Source of the DNA: Escherichia phage Eps7 | DNA: 64,000 bases | Sequence record: NC_010583.1 | Reading direction: 5' to 3' (one strand) | Shown: piece after piece, positions 1,612 to 24,282 of the stretch | Position numbering within the stretch: position 1 is the stretch's first letter | How the letters are laid out: each line of letters begins with the position of its first letter | Position numbers and translations under genes: made by a program | Notes under the pieces: generated by a model | What the model was told of the DNA's origin: nothing | Seen by the model: the letters and a program-made list of their open reading frames with translations, nothing else | The model's database searches: none

Positions 1612-3277
1612 TTATGCAAAGAATTTACCGTTTTTGAAGTCAATCAAAGTACGTTGCCCGTTTGCATAGGTAATTAAATGCGTTTGCGTCCAGCTTGACG
1701 CGCCCACGTTGTAGCCCATATCAAGCGACCCCGCCACGCCAGCGGTATAAACGCCGCCGTAAATGCTAGCCGTATGAGTATGACCAGTGTTAAGGCGTCC
1801 CAACTTTTTAAACTGCTTAGGATTGCCCCGACTGCCGTTAATGCCATTGTGACCATGTACGCCGCATTCAATGCCAGCGATTTTAAACGACTGGTCAGTA
1901 GTCAGGAAAATAGCGTTAAATTCGCAACCTGCGACACTACGCAAGGCGTAATCTAGCACGTTAAAAGTATCATCCTTTTCAGCAATAGCGGCGTATATAG
2001 CAGCGTTTAGACGGTGATACAATTCCGCGTTTGCGGGATCGTCTTTAATGTTAGCGTTACGATCATCTAACCAGCGGGATAAAGCTAAATCATGGTTAGA
2101 TTCAACAATGATTGTTTGAGAAAAATCACGCTCCATTGATTCTAATACGCGTCCAGTGTCGATAAGATCATCTAGAACCTTGTCACGTCCTGCGGCGTAC
2201 TGTTTAGCAAGGAATACACCACTAGCGCGGTTGTGATGGTTACGCGATGTAAAATCATGCACATCATGAATAAACTGATATTTAGGCTTGAGAATATCAA
2301 GCAAGCTGTTTTCACTAGCCCATGAAGCAACGGCGCATTCATCATCTAGTTTTTCGGCGTGAATATCGCCATATTGCAAGCCTAGAACATGATCGGACGT
2401 TTCAAAACATCCGGTGGGCATAGCGCAAACATTCAAATCATAGAACATTCCGCTTTCATCCATTGTTTCAAGCTGGCGGCAATAAAATTCTCCGTCGTCG
2501 TCAAATTCTACCAGCAAAGCACCGTAATTATGCAGCGCCTCGGCTTTTTGACCTGCTTTCTGCTGAATGTAGTTTTTAAGCGTAGCCGTTCCGGTTGAAT
2601 ACATACGGCGCACTACTTCACCTTTTAACGCTGGCACACTTTCAGCGGTAATTTTAGCGTGACCAATTGCCAGACCTTCAATATTAAAGCCGTGGCGGTT
2701 TCTGCGAATCCTGAAAGCGGATAGTCTGCCGTTGGTAACACGTTAATTTCAGCCATGAAAGCAAAACGGCGATTATTTAAAAATACGTTTTTCTCGCAAA
2801 TATATTTATTAAATGCGGGATCGTATTTAATGCCTTCGTTACCTTCTCCATTCTGGAAGCCGTTTTTATTGTAAATGAATTTACTAACCAGCAATTCACC
2901 GCCGATATATTCAGCGAATTTTTCCAGACTTGCTAAAAAGTTTTTATGCGGGAGGAAGTATTATTTTGAATCGACGTTAGAATAAAACGGCGACCGGATT
3001 TAACTTCCCACTGTTCCACGGTACTAGAAACAATCCCCGCCGCTTCTGGGCGATCATCATTTTTAATCGCCTTTTCAGCTTTTGCCGCTTTCGGTTTCGC
3101 TGGCTTGTTTGCTTCCAGCCAATCACAAATCGCGGTGGAATGTTTCGTTGTATCGTAAACAGCTTTTGAAATATCGTCGCAAACTTCTAATTTAGTAGCG
3201 CGCAAACGCTTACCATAGAAATTAAAATCAGCGGCCATTTTCAGAATTTGAGCTTGTTTTTCTGCGGAAATATTCAT
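1612..3277 (-). CDS. A1: A1-like pre-early protein with metallophosphoesterase domain; reading frame interrupted twice
   Basis: three consecutive same-strand ORFs (2933..3277, 2625..2894, 1612..2637) totalling ~545 aa; GVHGH and GHTHT phosphoesterase-like motifs in the C-terminal piece; ORF ends look out of frame. Confidence 0.55.
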
Positions 3278-8324: not shown

Positions 8325-8537
8325 ATGTTAAAGAATATTTCCCTTGCCCGTTCTAAAGGTTTTAAGCTGGTGGATGTTAACACGTTTGAGCGTCCAGATT
8401 GTAAAATCGAATATGTAGCACGCAACAAAAACGCTTTCCGTGTTACTGAAAAGAAATTTGACAAGCGCGGAAATTTGGTAGCCGAAACGGTTAAACACTT
8501 TGCCACCTTTTACGCTGCTTTTCGTGGGGTATTATGA
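8325..8537 (+). CDS. hypothetical protein
   Basis: 70-aa ORF. Confidence 0.45.
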   Translation: MLKNISLARSKGFKLVDVNTFERPDCKIEYVARNKNAFRVTEKKFDKRGNLVAETVKHFATFYAAFRGVL

Positions 8538-8658
8538 AAACTTTATTTTCTATTTTGCTCGGTGCTGCTGGTGGCTTTATTGCTACCTACTTAAAGTGAT
8601 CCTGCACTGTTAGGAGTTTATTCGATTTGTTTTGGCTATTTGCTAGGGAGGTTGGCAG

Positions 8659-9003
8659 ATGGTAATTTATGAGGGCAATCGCTTTATTACTAATTGCCGT
8701 CCGGCATTATTAGCAAACTATTTAAATCAGCTTTCACCAGTTTATAAAGGCGTAGTTAATATCTATGAGGGCAAAGCACATTATAAAATTTCTGCCGTTG
8801 TCGCCCGTGAACTAGCGTTTCAATTTTTAACTTTTGGGTCTTGTGACGTTCAGGTTATGGGGGAAGCGTTAATAGCGGAAAATGAAAATGAATTTATTGA
8901 CATTTTCCGCAAAGTATGTACGGAGCGCCTGATTATGAAAGGCGCGTATATTCAATCAACCGCTGAAAGTATTGAAACAGCGTTTCGAAAGGTGGCGCAA
9001 TGA
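8659..9003 (+). CDS. hypothetical protein
   Basis: 114-aa ORF with GGGAGG RBS. Confidence 0.55.
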   Translation: MVIYEGNRFITNCRPALLANYLNQLSPVYKGVVNIYEGKAHYKISAVVARELAFQFLTFGSCDVQVMGEALIAENENEFIDIFRKVCTERLIMKGAYIQSTAESIETAFRKVAQ

Positions 9004-9200
9004 CTAAAGATGAAGCACTAGAAAAAATGAAACAAGGTTTCAAAGTTAGTAATCAATATTTTACTAGCGATGAATTTTTGTACATGAAAGAAAACGGCGT
9101 GATCATGTCAGAAGATGGTTACAATTTTAATGATTGGTTTTTCAATATTCGCAAGGGTGAGGAATGGAAGCTAGACGGTTGGAGCGTCTACCGTGAATAG
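9000..9200 (+). CDS. hypothetical protein
   Basis: 66-aa ORF, ATGA overlap with upstream gene. Confidence 0.5.
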   Translation: MTKDEALEKMKQGFKVSNQYFTSDEFLYMKENGVIMSEDGYNFNDWFFNIRKGEEWKLDGWSVYRE

Positions 9201-9326
9201 CTGGTGGCGTAAAACGCAAAGTCACAAATCTAATAATACCGCTGGGAAACATTCCCAGCGTTTACGATTTGGTAATGGCTTTACAATGATATTGATAATC
9301 ATTCTCATTCTAGGAGCGATGGCGTT

Positions 9327-9422
9327 ATGAGACTATATATTTTCGTGGGTAATATTAAGCCTGCTAATGATCCCAACGGTGGCGACAATATCCGCCGCTA
9401 TTTTCAACAATACATCTATTAA
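9327..9422 (+). CDS. small hypothetical peptide (31 aa)
   Basis: ORF below track threshold preceded by CTAGGAGCG RBS. Confidence 0.3.
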   Translation: MRLYIFVGNIKPANDPNGGDNIRRYFQQYIY

Positions 9423-9437
9423 TAACGGGGCGTTACT

Positions 9438-9632
9438 ATGAGTGATAAAATTGTTATTAGTAAAACTAGTGTTACCGTGGATACATTCTATGTAGAAGAT
9501 ACAAAAGAAAACCGCGCAATTTGTGAGAATCAAGAGTATGACAAACTTATATATGATGAGTATGGTTACTACACTAATCTAGTAGATTCCTACGGTGAAA
9601 GCGTAGAGTTCTCCCATCAAATACCGGACTAA
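9438..9632 (+). CDS. hypothetical protein
   Basis: 64-aa ORF; last gene of plus-strand cassette. Confidence 0.5.
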   Translation: MSDKIVISKTSVTVDTFYVEDTKENRAICENQEYDKLIYDEYGYYTNLVDSYGESVEFSHQIPD

Positions 9633-9638
9633 TAATAA

Positions 9639-9668
9639 CGGGGCGCAACTATCGGCCCCGCCTTTTCT
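9639..9668 (+). terminator. GC-rich hairpin followed by T-rich tract
   Basis: CGGGGC-loop-GCCCCG then CCTTTTCT after last cassette gene. Confidence 0.5.
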
Positions 9669-9780
9669 GGCCTTCCTCAAATTTCCCATTATTAAAATAC
9701 CTCCTCCAAAAATAAACGCGTTAGGATGCGTTACAGAGCGTTTTAGAGCTATATTAGAGTTATTCACCACGCAGGAATAC

Positions 9781-9914
9781 TGTATAAATATACAGTAGAA
9801 TAACCTGTTGATAAGTCTGTTGATAACGCCTCAAAATCACTAGGATTTTGTCAAGTCAAATCGTGCTGTTAATAAACCTGTGGATAACTTAAATAACAGT
9901 GTTTCTCACTTCGC
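9781..9914. repeat. right arm of ~135-bp imperfect inverted repeat (DnaA-box-like sites, palindrome)
   Basis: CTGTATAAATATACAG 9781-9796; TGTTGATAA x2 (9807-9827) and TGTGGATAA 9879-9887; reverse complement matches 5521-5655. Confidence 0.7.
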
Positions 9915-10100
9915 TTTCTAAATGCGACTCATTCTCATTATGCGACTCATTCGTACTCAACTCTGTAAAGGATAACCATTCTCATTCCGCTTTCTAAGTG
10001 TGAATCATTATCATTCGCATTCAACTTCTCAAATGCGAATCAATCTCATTATCATTCGCATTTCGGCAGGCAGGGCATTTTCATTTTGCCCTGCGCTTTT

Positions 10101-10698
10101 GTGCAAATCCGACATTTGCCCCCACGGATTACGTGCCAGCGTGCATGTGCGAATCCGACAATTTTGTGTGTGAAACCGATGGGAAATATTTTTTATATGT
10201 GCGAATCCGACAATGAATTTTCCTAAAAACTCCAGCAATCAGCAACTGCGATGCAATCCAGCTGGATTCACTAGAGTATGTGCAAATCCGACATGAGTTT
10301 ATTTGTGCAAAACCGACAAGATTTTTGTGACTTCGATGAGAGGGTGTGTGATTGTGTGGGTTTGGGGAGAAGTGCGAATCCGACGAGGTTTTTGGGAGGA
10401 ACTATGGAGGGTGCAGCTGTAGTGGTGCTTCAGCACCGGTTTGCTGCGTTTTTGGGGATAATGTGGGATGTTTTGGCTAGAATTGAGATTAGTGGAGATA
10501 AAGCGAAATTTTTATTAGCAAAATGGGGCAAAATCGCTTGACAAGTGAAAATTCCTGTGGCTCCAAAAACTCAGGCAATCAAGGGCCTTCGGCCCGAAAT
10601 AATGCTGCTATTTTCAGGAGAGTATGTGTTCATGAAAACTTAGGCAATTGTGCAAATCCGACCATAAATTTCTAGAAACACAATGTGCAAATCCGACA
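10101..10698. repeat. dispersed array of about 8 copies of 14-bp motif GTGC(A/G)AATCCGACA
   Basis: copies at 10101, 10147, 10199, 10280, 10305 (variant), 10372 (variant), 10650, 10685; irregular spacing; non-coding. Confidence 0.75.
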
Positions 10699-10741
10699 GT
10701 AATTTCCAGAAATGTGTTTTCAAAAAAATGTTGTCTAGAAA

Positions 10742-10814
10742 TAACCGCCCTCCCTATAACCGCCCTGTATAGGAAACCGCCCTAGGATATCTATAGTAGG
10801 TGAGAAACTGCCCT
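10742..10814. repeat. short direct repeats AACCGCCCT x3 plus AACTGCCCT
   Basis: 10742-10750, 10758-10766, 10775-10783, 10806-10814. Confidence 0.6.
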
Positions 10815-11232
10815 AGAATGCGTGAGAAACAGATTTAAAGTTTGATGTAAACTCTAGAGTTAGTGCTCAACTATTCCTAGAAACTTAGGAGTCTAGAGGA
10901 AAGTGTTGTGCCATCCTAGCAGATGAGCGGCAACAGGTGTATCATCTTGAACATAAATATTGCCTTTAAATATTTATAAGGTAAATAAAAGTAAATATAC
11001 CCCCATTTCATGAGAGTTAGCCCCTCTAGGCGCGTGCGATTTGATACATCCTCCTGAGTCTCGGGGAGGAAGAACAATTGACGAGAACCTGCAAGCAGAA
11101 CCGTCATCAAGTGTTTTCCTACGAGGAATGATGTAAATCTACGGCCTAGAGGTAAAAACAAGTTGATGTTTTTAATCTATGAGATTATTATAACATGCAG
11201 CTCAAATAATGTCAAGAAGATTTTATTAACAT

Positions 11233-12267
11233 TTATACATCGTGATTGACTTTGAGTATGACTCCCTTCGATGCCATGAAAAGGAATGTTGCTAAGTAAG
11301 ATGACTCGGAGTTTAGCGCAGAATAATCTACACTTCCTCTAGGTCTAGTTTCTTGTTTAGTGTCAAGAATTGTTGATATATCAAACTTAACAAAGTTAGC
11401 AATCTTTCTAGCTTGCTCGGGATCACGTAAGAGTTCATAATGCGCTGCATTTAGAATATTAGTGGATTCAATTACATCATCATTAATTATACTTAGATGA
11501 ACCTGCGCAAGTATCGAGACAATCCCTAGCTTTAACTCAGATACAGAAGAATAAGGTGGTTCTACTTTCTTTGTAAGTCTAGGAAGATGATCATATTTAC
11601 ATTGTTTTTGTGGAATCATCAGAATGTTGGGATAACATTCTAAACATGACTTTGCATTTCCTTCTTTAAAATGTGGGAGTTCTTTATCAGCAAAGACATG
11701 GAATGAATCTGCTGAGAATCCTTTAATAGTAGGGTCAACAGTTTGAATCAGACGACGTAGACTAATGTATGAAGGAGCTAATGTAACTTCTTCTGCATCT
11801 TTATTATACTTGGGCTGTCCACTAGCATTAATATATGCAGGATAAAACTCTGCACAAAATGCTATTGCATGTGCCTCTAACTCATTAAGCTGAGAAACAC
11901 ATTTTCCATTACAAGCTCTAGCTAATTTAATAATCTCTGCTAAATTCTTTTTTTATACTCATATATAATCATCCGGTCTGGGTTTAAGTTCTGTTATTGA
12001 TTTTGCTGAGGGCTCTAACTTAATCCATGTAAATCCTAGCTGTTCTGATAGGTGAGAGATATTTCTAGGTGTTATCTTTATATCTGGAGGTAATTTAAAT
12101 ACTAGGTCTTTAAGTAACTTCATATCATCTGAACCAATGAAGAGAATATACTGCATTTCATCTCTTAGTTCATATTCAGATTCACTCAGGGAGCTAACAC
12201 CAGCAGTAAATTTATTGAGTTGGGCCACTTTGCAGCGACCCACGGTAAACTGAGTAATTATATCCAT
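11233..12267 (-). CDS. hypothetical protein(s); coding continuous 11233-11952 but no canonical start, upstream ORF 11959..12267 ends 6 nt before an A7 run
   Basis: ORFs 11233..11619 and 11959..12267 with an open stop-free frame between them; possible indel at homopolymer 11946-11952. Confidence 0.4.
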
Positions 12268-12878
12268 TAACGACCTCTAGCCTTATCTGCATCAATAGCT
12301 TCGAATACTTTCGTTAACATTTCTTCAAGCTCTCCATCTTTGCTAGGGTTGCTCAGATGAATAGTATATGAGTTCCTAGAAACTCCGGAGTCTTCCTGTG
12401 CTCCGCGATCTTTAGCAAAACTCATCATTGTAACACCAGCTTTGTTCCACTCATCTACGTTAGACGCTTCCCCAAACTTATATGACTGTGTACTATTTAC
12501 TATACCACCACACTTAATATTGTGCATATCCGACATTAATCTTTTATCAGAATTATTTAACATCGTGATTGGTCCAGACTGCCACGGATCTCGAATAGTC
12601 ACTGGAGTACTAGGGCGGTTCACCTCAGTCTTCACAAGTTTGTATCCAGCATCGATTAGTGAATTAATCAGATTATCAGCCGGGATGCGAGCCGTGCCAA
12701 AGATCTTACGAGCATTCATAAGTTTAGCCTGAAACTCTTTGCAAGCCTGAAGATCAATGTGCAAAAACGACAGCTGCATAGATTTAAACTGTACTGTAGC
12801 AGTCAGATCTTTAAAGCTGTAATCCCATGTATCGAGTTCATGATCTGCAACTACTTTAATGGTTTGTTGTGTAAACAT
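12267..12878 (-). CDS. hypothetical protein
   Basis: 203-aa ORF. Confidence 0.5.
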   Translation of the reverse strand: MFTQQTIKVVADHELDTWDYSFKDLTATVQFKSMQLSFLHIDLQACKEFQAKLMNARKIFGTARIPADNLINSLIDAGYKLVKTEVNRPSTPVTIRDPWQSGPITMLNNSDKRLMSDMHNIKCGGIVNSTQSYKFGEASNVDEWNKAGVTMMSFAKDRGAQEDSGVSRNSYTIHLSNPSKDGELEEMLTKVFEAIDADKARGR

Positions 12879-23529: not shown

Positions 23530-24282
23530 TTATCCAACTAGTGGTTCTAGCTCTAAGTCACAGAAGTGGTACACATCGGTACGAAGTGCATCAAGTCCGT
23601 TGAAGGTATTCTCAAATTTATGAGAAATGTATTTTTCAGGAATACCGCTTTCAGACGGATGATCTGTCTCGATGCGATACTTATTAGTAATACCAGATTC
23701 AACCTTAATAAGCATGGAATCCATATCTAGAGTATTGGTTTCCATGATTAGCTCTCCCTCATTGGGGAAACGCACATCGGTAACGATTGCGACGTCTGGG
23801 TCGTCTTTATCGATGGATTGCTCCAGAATTATGAGCCAAATGCGTTCATGCACCAGCTGCCTTCCTAACTCAGTACCTACAAGCTGTAGCATTTTTCTTG
23901 GGGAGATAAATACGCTATACAGCGCATCATCAGCTTGCCCAATTAACTGCTGAGGATCAAGGTATTTTCCTTCAAAAATCGGCCAAACGTACGAGAAGTC
24001 CTCAAACTTATCGATACCATACTTAAACCATACGTCTCTAGCTCGCTCCAATTGAGATTGTGTGACTGTAAACCATTGGTCAATCTCTTTTCCCCTGCGC
24101 TCTCCCAGAAACTCTGGAGTTACCCCGAGGATTACGGATGCAAGTTCGTAAACGGGTTTAGCAAAACTGTAACGACGGGATAAACACGTTGGGAACGTGT
24201 CATTACACCAGTCAATCATTAATTCTGCAACGGTATCTTTTCCCGCACCAGCCTCACCATGTAAACCGACTAATACTGACAT
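23530..24282 (-). CDS. deoxynucleoside monophosphate kinase-like P-loop protein
   Basis: 250-aa ORF with N-terminal GEAGAGKDT Walker A, similar in layout to phage dNMP kinases. Confidence 0.6.
   Translation of the reverse strand: MSVLVGLHGEAGAGKDTVAELMIDWCNDTFPTCLSRRYSFAKPVYELASVILGVTPEFLGERRGKEIDQWFTVTQSQLERARDVWFKYGIDKFEDFSYVWPIFEGKYLDPQQLIGQADDALYSVFISPRKMLQLVGTELGRQLVHERIWLIILEQSIDKDDPDVAIVTDVRFPNEGELIMETNTLDMDSMLIKVESGITNKYRIETDHPSESGIPEKYISHKFENTFNGLDALRTDVYHFCDLELEPLVG

What the first reader, a model, noticed from the sequence alone, without database searches (positions are those of the whole stretch)
9915..10830. Repeat-dense non-coding kilobase (GTGCRAATCCGACA array) at about 10 kb
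About 8 copies of GTGC(A/G)AATCCGACA occur with irregular spacing between 10101 and 10698, flanked by other short repeat families (TCATTATCATTCGCA x2, AACCGCCCT x3). The block sits where the coding strand switches and near where a T5-type ~10-kb terminal repeat would end. It is a candidate protein-binding array (terminase, replication or partition-like) or a terminal-repeat boundary element.
Basis: seen in the sequence. Interest (0 to 1): 0.65.

Follow-up and report, generated by a model that had tools for sequence, protein, structure and literature searches.

The report
T5 terminal-repeat boundary repeat array
This is the already-described "direct repeat D" array in the non-coding injection-stop region of T5-like phages; it surrounds the exact spot where the 10-kb terminal repeat ends, and what it does has never been shown.

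Summary
Eight same-strand copies of GTGCRAATCCGACA lie at window 10101-10698, against 0.54 expected by chance in the whole window. The window is a T5-like phage (Demerecviridae, Epseptimavirus-like).

The block is homologous to T5 "Repeat Region 3". The T5 GenBank record AY587007 already annotates this motif as "direct repeat D copy 1-12". It was first sequenced in 1987 as the injection-stop-signal region. The feature is therefore already known, but its function is not.

What I add:
- By homology the terminal repeat ends at window 10563|10564. This rests on the T5 annotation, on phage BD13, and on 9 of 12 contigs that carry both repeats, all ending at CTGTGGCTC|TAAAAAC.
- That end sits in a gap in the array, with 5-7 copies to the left and 2-3 to the right.
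- The same motif, orientation and bracketing arrangement persist in Klebsiella and Vibrio Demerecviridae, although the surrounding DNA has diverged.
- Paired copies were found in none of 100,044 bacterial and archaeal species genomes, apart from one mis-binned phage fragment.

My best guess (about 0.4) is a protein-binding array that marks the packaging and cleavage site at the right end of the repeat. Rival readings are a role in injection stop or restart, an iteron-type origin, or a nick-site accessory. None of these was tested biochemically.

The parts
9639..9661 (+). Hairpin followed by a T-run, equivalent to T5 'palindrome C' / putative terminator. It ends the rightward pre-early genes.
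   Evidence: Mapped from the T5 annotation; sequence read.
9778..9797 (.). Palindrome TACTGTATAAATATACAGTA, equivalent to T5 'palindrome D'. It matches the LexA/SOS-box consensus at 19 of 20 positions.
   Evidence: It is the only exact TACTG-N10-CAGTA in the window and is present in 43 related loci, including Klebsiella and Vibrio phages.
9805..9827 (-). Pair of DnaA-box variants (TTATCAACA twice), equivalent to T5 direct repeat B copy 1.
   Evidence: Davison preprint 10.1101/866236.
9866..9888 (-). Second DnaA-box pair (TTATTAACA plus the consensus TTATCCACA), equivalent to T5 direct repeat B copy 2.
9916..10057 (+). AT-rich repeat family (ATGCGAATCATT..ATCATTCGCATT), equivalent to T5 direct repeats C / DRE.
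   Evidence: families D2, D3, D5.
10070..10096 (.). Hairpin (T5 'palindrome J') overlapping CCCTGCGC. That 8-mer is identical to the T5 'major single-stranded nick 1, 7.9%' site and lies 4 nt before the first motif copy.
10100..10385 (+). Left cluster of the motif, inside the terminal repeat. Copies lie at 10100-10114, 10146-10160, 10167-10180 (degenerate), 10198-10212, 10279-10293, 10304-10318 and 10371-10385 (lineage-specific). These correspond to T5 DRD copies 1-6.
10331..10530 (+). G/T-rich tract (GC skew +0.34 to +0.37) containing the T5 'direct repeat A' homologues. It lies between the left motif cluster and the repeat end.
10496..10569 (+). Most deeply conserved block (..TGGGGCAAAA..TTGACAAGTGAAAATTCCTGTGGCTC|CAAAAAC). 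It contains the predicted right end of the terminal repeat at 10563|10564.
   Evidence: It is the only segment that still aligns to Klebsiella phages by blastn. Conservation over 10501-10620 is 0.93.
10583..10595 (.). Hairpin GGGCCTTCGGCCC, 20 nt outside the repeat end. Klebsiella phage Roth39 has a hairpin of different sequence at the same place.
10649..10698 (+). Right cluster of the motif, outside the terminal repeat. Copies lie at 10649-10663 and 10684-10698, corresponding to T5 DRD copies 7 and 8.
10743..10783 (+). AACCGCCCT in three copies. The first two are conserved in T5 and Klebsiella phages.
12521..12535 (+). Solitary motif copy TGTGCATATCCGACA inside the - strand gene 12267-12878. 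It is found at the same relative position in three relatives.

Best explanation
Identity (near certain): this is the T5-type 'direct repeat D' array of 'Repeat Region 3'. That region is the untranslated, transcriptionally insulated gap between the pre-early genes and the early genes, and it is classically called the injection-stop-signal region.

Mechanism (inferred, not shown): the copies are binding sites for one sequence-specific protein. The two clusters, together with the conserved block between them, form the recognition site where replicated phage DNA is cut to make the right end of the terminal repeat. Because T5 ejects its left end first, the right end should be the first end packaged. 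This would therefore be the packaging-initiation site.

In this model a terminase small-subunit-type protein loads on the same-orientation copies on both sides of the cut, as at P1 pac or SPP1 pacL/pacR. The nuclease then cuts at CTGTGGCTC|, and the DNA to the left is packaged.

Shown here: the array, its conservation, and its position around the repeat end. Inferred: protein binding, the identity of the protein, and the packaging direction.
For: - **Homology and motif identity with annotated T5 DRD copies 1-9:**
- **Position of the repeat end:** it maps to 10563|10564 from the T5 annotation and from BD13, whose two repeat copies are identical for 2448 nt up to that base. Nine of 12 contigs carrying both repeats end there.
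- **Bracketing:** in every such genome the end lies in the gap of the array. There are 5-6 copies to the left and 2-3 to the right, with the nearest copies at about -242 and +86.
- **Same arrangement in diverged lineages:** L018/L019; L027/L028, where the flanks are only about 67% identical; Klebsiella phage Roth39, with 5 copies, then the cut block, then 4 copies at 27-bp spacing; and Vibrio phage River4, whose A1 protein is only 34% identical.
- **Motif conservation:** motif positions score 0.96 against 0.78 for the rest of the array region. Copy number and spacing vary between lineages, which is the signature of selection on the motif itself.
- **The cut block:** it is the only DNA still alignable to Klebsiella phages.
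- **Insulation:** terminators or hairpins flank the region on both sides, and no promoter excess is seen.
- **No host arrays:** paired copies occur in none of 100,044 bacterial and archaeal species genomes except one mis-binned T5-like fragment. This argues for a phage-specific partner.
- **Precedent (my own knowledge):** clusters of short repeats flanking a terminase cut are the established layout of P1 pac and SPP1 pac. T7 has repeat arrays (SRL/SRR) abutting its terminal repeat.
Against: - No binding or cutting experiment exists, and the T5 terminase recognition site is unknown.
- The left boundary of the terminal repeat has no copies of the motif, so the motif is not needed for every end cut.
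- Extra copies lie far from any end. A conserved pair sits inside the D13/SbcC-like gene and a single copy inside an early gene.
- The left cluster starts 4 nt from the 7.9% nick and about 50 bp from the estimated first-step-transfer boundary. That fits an injection role equally well.
- The nearest copies are 86-245 bp from the cut and the left cluster extends to about 460 bp. This is larger than classical pac sites.
- Some records (chee24, chee130_1) place the repeat end about 210 bp further left, at about window 10352.
- The packaging direction is inferred from the last-in-first-out rule. It has not been demonstrated for T5.
- The small terminase subunit (41% identity) and A2 (44% identity) are about equally conserved between this lineage and the Vibrio phage, so conservation does not single out the binder.
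Confidence: 0.4

Rival explanations
1. The array is part of the injection stop/restart machinery. It begins where first-step transfer halts. It would serve as the loading or ratchet site for the pre-early A1/A2 proteins that pull in the rest of the genome, or as a roadblock together with the DnaA boxes and palindromes to its left.
For: The first copy lies 4 nt right of the 7.9% nick and about 50 bp right of the estimated shear point (T5 9618 against 9672). The literature assigns the whole repeat region to the injection stop signal and says its repeats are probably involved in stop or restart. A2 is a conserved DNA-binding protein (phrog_1725), 44% identical in the Vibrio phage that keeps the motif. 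All copies share one orientation, matching one-directional DNA entry.
Against: [quoted passage not shown] The conserved copies outside the terminal repeat lie 0.55-1 kb past the stop point. Nothing in an injection role requires the repeat end to fall inside the array, yet it does so in every lineage examined. The pair inside D13, at about 65% of the genome, is unexplained.
Confidence: 0.25
2. The region is an iteron-type replication origin, made of DnaA boxes, an AT-rich repeat segment and same-orientation iterons. It would sit at the junction of the terminal repeat and the unique DNA, and might also prime the synthesis that duplicates the repeat.
For: The module order resembles plasmid and phage iteron origins: two DnaA-box pairs (9805-9888), AT-rich repeats (9916-10057), then 6-9 direct iterons. 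T5 origins are unmapped at sequence level. A recombitron study found strand bias indicating dominant one-directional replication from one end of T5 (PMC10055335). T5 D2 is a UL9-like helicase proposed to be an origin binder (PMC3632103). From my own memory, the complement of the motif (ATTCGCAC) resembles the UL9 box GTTCGCAC.
Against: Electron microscopy placed early origins near the middle of the genome, as cited in Davison's preprint. No initiator gene adjoins the array, and the neighbouring genes have no Pfam hit and unknown PHROG function. Which end the one-directional replication starts from is not stated. The resemblance to the UL9 box is a recollection of 7-8 bases, and only the helicase core of D2 is homologous to UL9.
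Confidence: 0.12
3. The motif is an accessory element of the T5 site-specific nicking system. It would position or pause the packaging-associated nickase near some of the major nick sites.
For: Nick 1 (CCCTGCGC) directly abuts the first copy in T5, in this window, in Klebsiella phage Roth39 and in Vibrio phage River4. T5 nick 4 (64.7%) lies 368 bp from the motif pair inside D13. A nickase gene sits between the portal and large terminase genes in PSa2.
Against: Nicks 2 and 3 have no motif within about 1 kb, even allowing 4 mismatches. Most copies have no GCGC nearby. Sequence similarity between the repeat end and the nick sites is not significant (p = 0.12-0.2).
Confidence: 0.1
4. The copies are sites for a conserved host protein, or a conserved DNA feature with no specific binding partner.
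For: The motif is unchanged between phages of Enterobacteria and of Vibrio. So are the DnaA boxes and the LexA-like palindrome, which are host-protein sites. Ten bases of the motif differ by one base from the tRNA T-arm sequence GTTCGAATCC.
Against: Paired copies were found in none of 100,044 species genomes, apart from one mis-binned phage fragment. I know of no host factor with this site.
Confidence: 0.08

Closest known systems
T5 'direct repeat D' (DRD) copies in Repeat Region 3 / injection-stop-signal region (Heusterspreute et al. 1987; Wang et al. 2005, GenBank AY587007; Davison 2015 and preprint 10.1101/866236)
   Same: The DNA is homologous (87% column identity over 1.4 kb). The motif is the same, TGTGCRAATCCGACA. 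The order of neighbours is the same: palindrome D, DnaA boxes, C/E repeats, palindrome J, nick 1, D repeats, A repeats, repeat end, then more D repeats.
   Different: This lineage has one extra copy (10371-10385), a degenerate copy 3, and no homologue of T5 copy 9. The repeat here is about 10.6 kb, against 10,139 bp in T5.
P1 pac and SPP1 pac (pacL-pacC-pacR) packaging-initiation sites; lambda cosB
   Same: Clusters of a short repeated element flank the position where the genome end is cut. The elements are directional. This comparison rests on my own knowledge of those systems plus for the layout here.
   Different: The scale is much larger: about 600-900 bp, with a 265-330 bp central gap. 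The ends are exact with a 10-kb direct repeat rather than headful or cohesive ends. Binding by the small terminase subunit is untested.
T7/T3 SRL and SRR short-repeat arrays next to the terminal repetition (Dunn and Studier 1983)
   Same: Arrays of short imperfect direct repeats abut the boundary of a direct terminal repeat in a virulent coliphage. Their function is also unresolved (my own knowledge).
   Different: The motif and phage family are unrelated. The T7 repeat is 160 bp, not 10 kb. Here one array spans only the right boundary.
Iteron-type origins (RK2 oriV, P1 oriR, lambda ori)
   Same: DnaA boxes, an AT-rich segment and several same-orientation iterons with irregular spacing.
   Different: There is no adjacent initiator gene and no replication evidence at this position. 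The array is split by a genome terminus.

Membership tests
T5 Repeat Region 3 / direct repeat D array | DNA homology to T5 AY587007 9194-10409 | tested here: met
   Pairwise alignment with 87% mean column identity. 521 T5-like records match window 9600-11200.
T5 Repeat Region 3 / direct repeat D array | Motif TGTGCRAATCCGACA in multiple same-strand copies at the positions annotated as 'direct repeat D' | tested here: met
   T5 copies 1, 2, 4, 5, 6, 7 and 8 map onto window copies, copy 3 onto a degenerate one, and copy 9 has no homologue.
T5 Repeat Region 3 / direct repeat D array | The array spans the right end of the left terminal repeat | tested here: met
   Met by homology only: the T5 end, the BD13 end and nine contig ends all map to window 10563. 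The window itself holds no right repeat copy to compare.
T5 Repeat Region 3 / direct repeat D array | Preceded by paired DnaA boxes (IRD'spacerIRC') and the CCCTGCGC nick-1 site | tested here: met
   DnaA boxes at 9805-9827 and 9866-9888; nick site at 10089-10096.
Terminase recognition (pac/cos-type) site | Located at the cut that creates a virion DNA end | tested here: met
   The predicted repeat end at 10563|10564 lies between the two motif clusters. This is by homology; no reads are available for this phage.
Terminase recognition (pac/cos-type) site | Repeated elements bound by the small terminase subunit | not testable with these tools
   A small-subunit gene exists in relatives outside this window (PSa2_00184) and has no Pfam hit. 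Binding needs EMSA or footprinting.
Terminase recognition (pac/cos-type) site | Necessary and sufficient in cis for cutting or packaging | not testable with these tools
   Needs a plasmid transduction or packaging assay.
Iteron-type replication origin | Three or more direct iterons next to DnaA boxes and an AT-rich segment | tested here: met
   GC content is 0.35 at 9750-10049.
Iteron-type replication origin | Cognate initiator gene adjacent to the iterons | tested here: not met
   Flanking ORFs have no Pfam family and only PHROGs of unknown function.
Iteron-type replication origin | Replication starts there | not testable with these tools
   The literature is indirect and conflicting.
CRISPR array | Repeats of 23-50 bp with regular spacing and unique spacers of similar length | tested here: not met
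   The core is 14-15 bp and start-to-start spacing is 25-278 bp. The spacers are conserved among relatives.
Known structured RNA (Rfam) | Match to a covariance model | tested here: not met
   No match at E <= 1 in window 8500-12500.

The most novel reading that the evidence does not exclude
The D-repeat clusters and the conserved block between them (TGGGGCAAAA..TTGACA..CCTGTGGCTC|) together form the long-sought packaging-initiation and end-cutting site of T5-like phages. This module would be conserved across Demerecviridae from enterobacterial to Vibrio phages, would be bound by the small terminase subunit, and would be distinct from the injection stop signal to which the region has been attributed since 1987.
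Probability: 0.35. Interest if true: 0.55.

Novelty: already known. Interest (0 to 1): 0.33.

Why it matters
T5 is a classical model phage, yet two of its defining features are still unexplained at the DNA level: two-step DNA injection, and exact 10-kb terminal repeats. Papers from 2026 still describe the stop/restart mechanism as poorly understood.

The array is a prime cis-acting candidate for one or both features. The end of the repeat sits in a conserved gap of the array in every lineage examined, including Vibrio phages. That gives a concrete, cheap test. The two copies outside the repeat are single-copy and can be edited, so packaging and injection roles can be separated.

For genome annotators the practical value is smaller but real. 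The motif and the CTGTGGCTC|(T/C)AAAAAC junction locate the repeat boundary in the many T5-like assemblies that collapse or misplace the repeats.

Tried and rejected
1. **CRISPR-like array.** Rejected on repeat length, irregular spacing and conserved spacers.
2. **Known RNA family.** No Rfam match at E <= 1 in 8500-12500.
3. **Promoter cluster.** Promoter-like sites are not enriched (10 found against 12.5 expected), and none lies within the D-repeat array (10100-10698).
4. **The repeat end is itself a nick-type site.** Local alignment of the T5 nick-2 and nick-3 contexts against the repeat end was not significant (p = 0.12-0.59). Only an unrelated element at window 10874 resembles nick 2.
5. 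**A shared inverted cut-site signature at both repeat boundaries (GATTRC-N11-cut, TCCAC inside).** It is present in T5 and BD13 but absent from the Klebsiella-type and L018 lineages. Inconclusive, and found post hoc.
6. **Picking the binding protein by conservation.** A2 (44%) and the small terminase subunit (41%) are about equally conserved between this lineage and the Vibrio phage.
7. **Host chromosomal arrays of the motif.** The scan found none.
8. **Literature search for the motif string.** It returned only unrelated primers.
9. **Helical phasing of copies.** By my own inspection the spacings (21, 25, 27, 31, 35, 46, 52, 81 bp) fit no single phase.
10. **Davison 2015 and Bourguignon 1976.** Neither could be read; they are not held.

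Full report
**1. Observation**

The motif is there. GTGCRAATCCGACA occurs eight times with at most 1 mismatch, at 10101, 10147, 10199, 10280, 10305, 10372, 10650 and 10685. All copies are on the + strand. Allowing 2 mismatches, the whole 64-kb window has 12 matches against 0.54 expected, and no shuffle of 100 reached 12.

The repeat finder recovers the same eight copies as a 23-nt family, with start-to-start spacings of 46, 52, 81, 25, 67, 278 and 35 bp. TCATTATCATTCGCATT occurs at 10005 and 10046. AACCGCCCT occurs at 10743, 10758 and 10775.

The block lies between convergent genes. The last + strand gene ends at 9632, and the first credible - strand gene is 11233-11619. A hairpin-plus-T-run at 9639-9661 lies on the left (T5's annotated 'palindrome C' terminator). 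A terminator-like site at 11017-10999 lies on the right.

**2. What genome and what region**

Window 9600-11200 matches 521 phage records. All the close matches are T5-like Demerecviridae, and the best are PSa2 and BD13 at 95%.

The region aligns to T5 (AY587007) 9189-10599 with 87% column identity. In that record the motif is already annotated as "direct repeat D copy 1-9" (9672-10409). It is preceded by "major single-stranded nick 1, 7.9%", palindromes C-J, direct repeats B and C, and inverted repeats D' and C'. The left terminal repeat is annotated as ending at 10139, between copies 6 and 7.

Mapping these features onto the window gives:
- palindrome D at 9778-9797
- DnaA-box pairs at 9805-9827 and 9866-9888
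- C repeats at 9916-10057
- palindrome J at 10070-10094
- the nick-1 octamer CCCTGCGC at 10089-10096, identical to T5
- D copies 1-8 on the window copies
- the T5 repeat end at window 10563

Davison's preprint calls this "Repeat Region 3". [quoted passage not shown] It lists nine D repeats and attributes the region to the injection stop signal. It assigns no role to the D repeats. Two 2026 papers still describe the signal only as a repeat-rich non-coding region with a poorly understood mechanism. The feature is therefore already known, and its function is not.

**3. The terminal-repeat end**

The window is only 64 kb and holds no right repeat copy, so I used relatives.
- In BD13 (95% identical here), the right-repeat copy is identical to the left for 2448 nt. 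The record ends at ...TTCCTGGGGCTC|, which corresponds exactly to window 10563|10564 (GGCTC|CAAAAACTC).
- In a blastn of the window region against IMG/VR loci, nine contig ends stop at exactly that query position.
- Among 12 contig pairs carrying both repeats, nine end at ...CTGTGGC(T/C)C|(C)TAAAAACTCAGG. They have 5-6 motif copies to the left and 2-3 to the right, with the nearest copies at about -242 and +86.
- One Klebsiella-type contig diverges from its left-repeat flank exactly after CCTGTGGCTC.

There are exceptions. The chee24 and chee130_1 records place the end about 210 bp further left, near window 10352.

Window position 1 lies 71 nt inside BD13's left terminus. The repeat here is therefore about 10.6 kb.

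**4. Conservation and distribution**

Across 15 T5-like loci that are 77-94% identical to the window in this region, motif positions are conserved at 0.96. The rest of 10098-10700 scores 0.78. The block around the repeat end (10501-10620) scores 0.93.

In more distant genomes the flanks diverge, but the motif, its orientation and its position around the repeat end persist.
- L027/L028 has 5 copies, then the end, then 6 copies. L018/L019 has 4-6 (by mismatch cut-off), then the end, then 2-3.
- In Klebsiella phage Roth39 only a 74-bp block next to the end aligns by blastn. It still has the LexA-like palindrome, the DnaA boxes, three C-type repeats, CCTGCGC followed by the first copy, 5 copies, TTGACA..CCTGTGGCTC, and then 4 copies at 27-bp spacing.
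- Vibrio phage River4 belongs to a different subfamily, and its A1 protein is 34% identical. It has CCCCTGCGCC followed by GTGCGAATCCGACA, then 7 more copies spanning the record's repeat boundary. It also has DnaA-box pairs and a TACTG-N10-CAGTA palindrome.

From 70 sites, the extended motif is a-T-GTGCAAATCCGACA-N4-TTT.

Exact 15-mers occur in multiple copies only in T5-like contigs of 104-123 kb, and only at the repeat junctions. In PSa2's other 50 kb, the only copies are a tandem pair inside the SbcC-like D13 gene. T5 also annotates this pair, as copies 11 and 12, 368 bp from nick 4. The pair is conserved in five phages, but that gene segment is 97% identical overall, so this is uninformative about selection on the motif.

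A paired-motif pattern found nothing in 100,044 bacterial and archaeal species genomes except one T5-like fragment mis-binned into a MAG.

**5. Mechanism**

The array is a conserved, transcriptionally insulated set of one-orientation sites. Their sequence is fixed while number and spacing drift. That is the signature of binding sites for one protein.

Four facts bear on which process it serves:
- (a) The repeat's right end always falls in the array's central gap, next to the most deeply conserved block.
- (b) The first copy abuts the 7.9% nick and lies about 50 bp from the estimated first-step-transfer boundary.
- (c) DnaA boxes and an AT-rich repeat segment lie immediately to the left.
- (d) The left boundary of the repeat has no copies.

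Fact (a) is not required by an injection or an origin role. It is unlikely by chance, since an array of under 1 kb sits in a genome of about 110 kb, and the pattern repeats across lineages. I therefore favour a role in forming the right end and starting packaging (about 0.4). The closest analogies are the repeat clusters that flank the cut in P1 pac and SPP1 pac, and the repeat arrays next to the T7 terminal repeat. These comparisons, and the inferred right-to-left packaging direction, rest on my own knowledge and are not tested here.

The rivals are:
- injection stop or restart, for example A1/A2 loading (0.25)
- an iteron-type origin (0.12); a recombitron study suggests one-directional replication from one end, and D2 is a UL9-like helicase
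- a nick-site accessory (0.10)
- a host-factor site or other (0.08)

**6. Verdict**

The protein-binding function is plausible but untested.

The element is already described and annotated in T5, so novelty is low. The residual interest is that its function remains open. The conserved bracketing of the repeat end, now traced to Klebsiella and Vibrio relatives, gives a specific and testable packaging-site hypothesis.

Noticed in passing
window 9778-9797: T5 'palindrome D' (TACTGTATAAATATACAGTA) matches the LexA/SOS-box consensus TACTG(TA)5CAGTA at 19 of 20 positions. It is the only exact TACTG-N10-CAGTA in the window. It is present in 43 related loci, including Klebsiella Roth39 and Vibrio River4. 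Davison's preprint does not mention LexA, and no held paper links LexA to T5 first-step transfer.
   Followed up: partly
window 11215-10990, - strand: A perfect sigma-70 consensus promoter (TTGACA-17-TGTTATAAT) lies just past the last early gene. It would drive a leftward RNA of about 190 nt ending in an intrinsic terminator. MFE is -66.5 kcal/mol, z = -5.3. The promoter and the first 15 nt or so are conserved in T5 and Klebsiella lineages while the body differs. There is no Rfam hit and no annotation in T5. This is a candidate small RNA.
   Followed up: partly
PSa2 80348-80376 (L072 19809-19837); T5 79019-79048: A tandem pair of the same motif lies in the coiled-coil region of the SbcC-like D13 gene. 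It has the same orientation as the array and sits 368 bp from T5 major nick 4 (64.7%). T5 annotates it as D copies 11 and 12. It lies outside this window.
   Followed up: partly
window 12521-12535: A solitary copy, TGTGCATATCCGACA, lies inside the - strand gene 12267-12878 (phrog_5271). It is kept at the same relative position, about 1.8-2.0 kb right of the array, in three relatives.
   Followed up: no
window 10331-10530; Roth39 L073 1860-2045: A G/T-rich tract (TTTGGGG-type runs, GC skew about +0.35) lies on the strand whose 3' end is the genome's right terminus. In the Klebsiella phage it forms a canonical G-quadruplex-type run (GGGG-N-GGGG...). This resembles telomere orientation.
   Followed up: no
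T5 nick sites (L002, L078, L079); window 10089 and 24093: T5 major nick sites share more than CCCTGCGC. A (G/T)(A/G)TTAC element lies about 30 nt downstream. Nick 2 is conserved in the window at 24093. A copy of the nick-2 right half (TCCTAGAAACTTAGGAGT) sits at window 10874.
   Followed up: partly
window 1612-3277 and 11233-11958, - strand: A1 appears as two ORFs (1612-2637, 341 aa, and 2933-3277, 114 aa), against 527 aa in T5. The 128-aa ORF at 11233-11619 matches only the C-terminal half of phrog_8993, and the upstream half shows no ORF of 40 aa or more. These may be interrupted genes or sequencing errors.
   Followed up: no
L084 (RZZU01000077.1): A 3-kb contig labelled as part of a Clostridia MAG is 82-86% identical to window 5.4-10.2 kb. 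It is a T5-like phage fragment mis-binned into a bacterial genome.
   Followed up: yes
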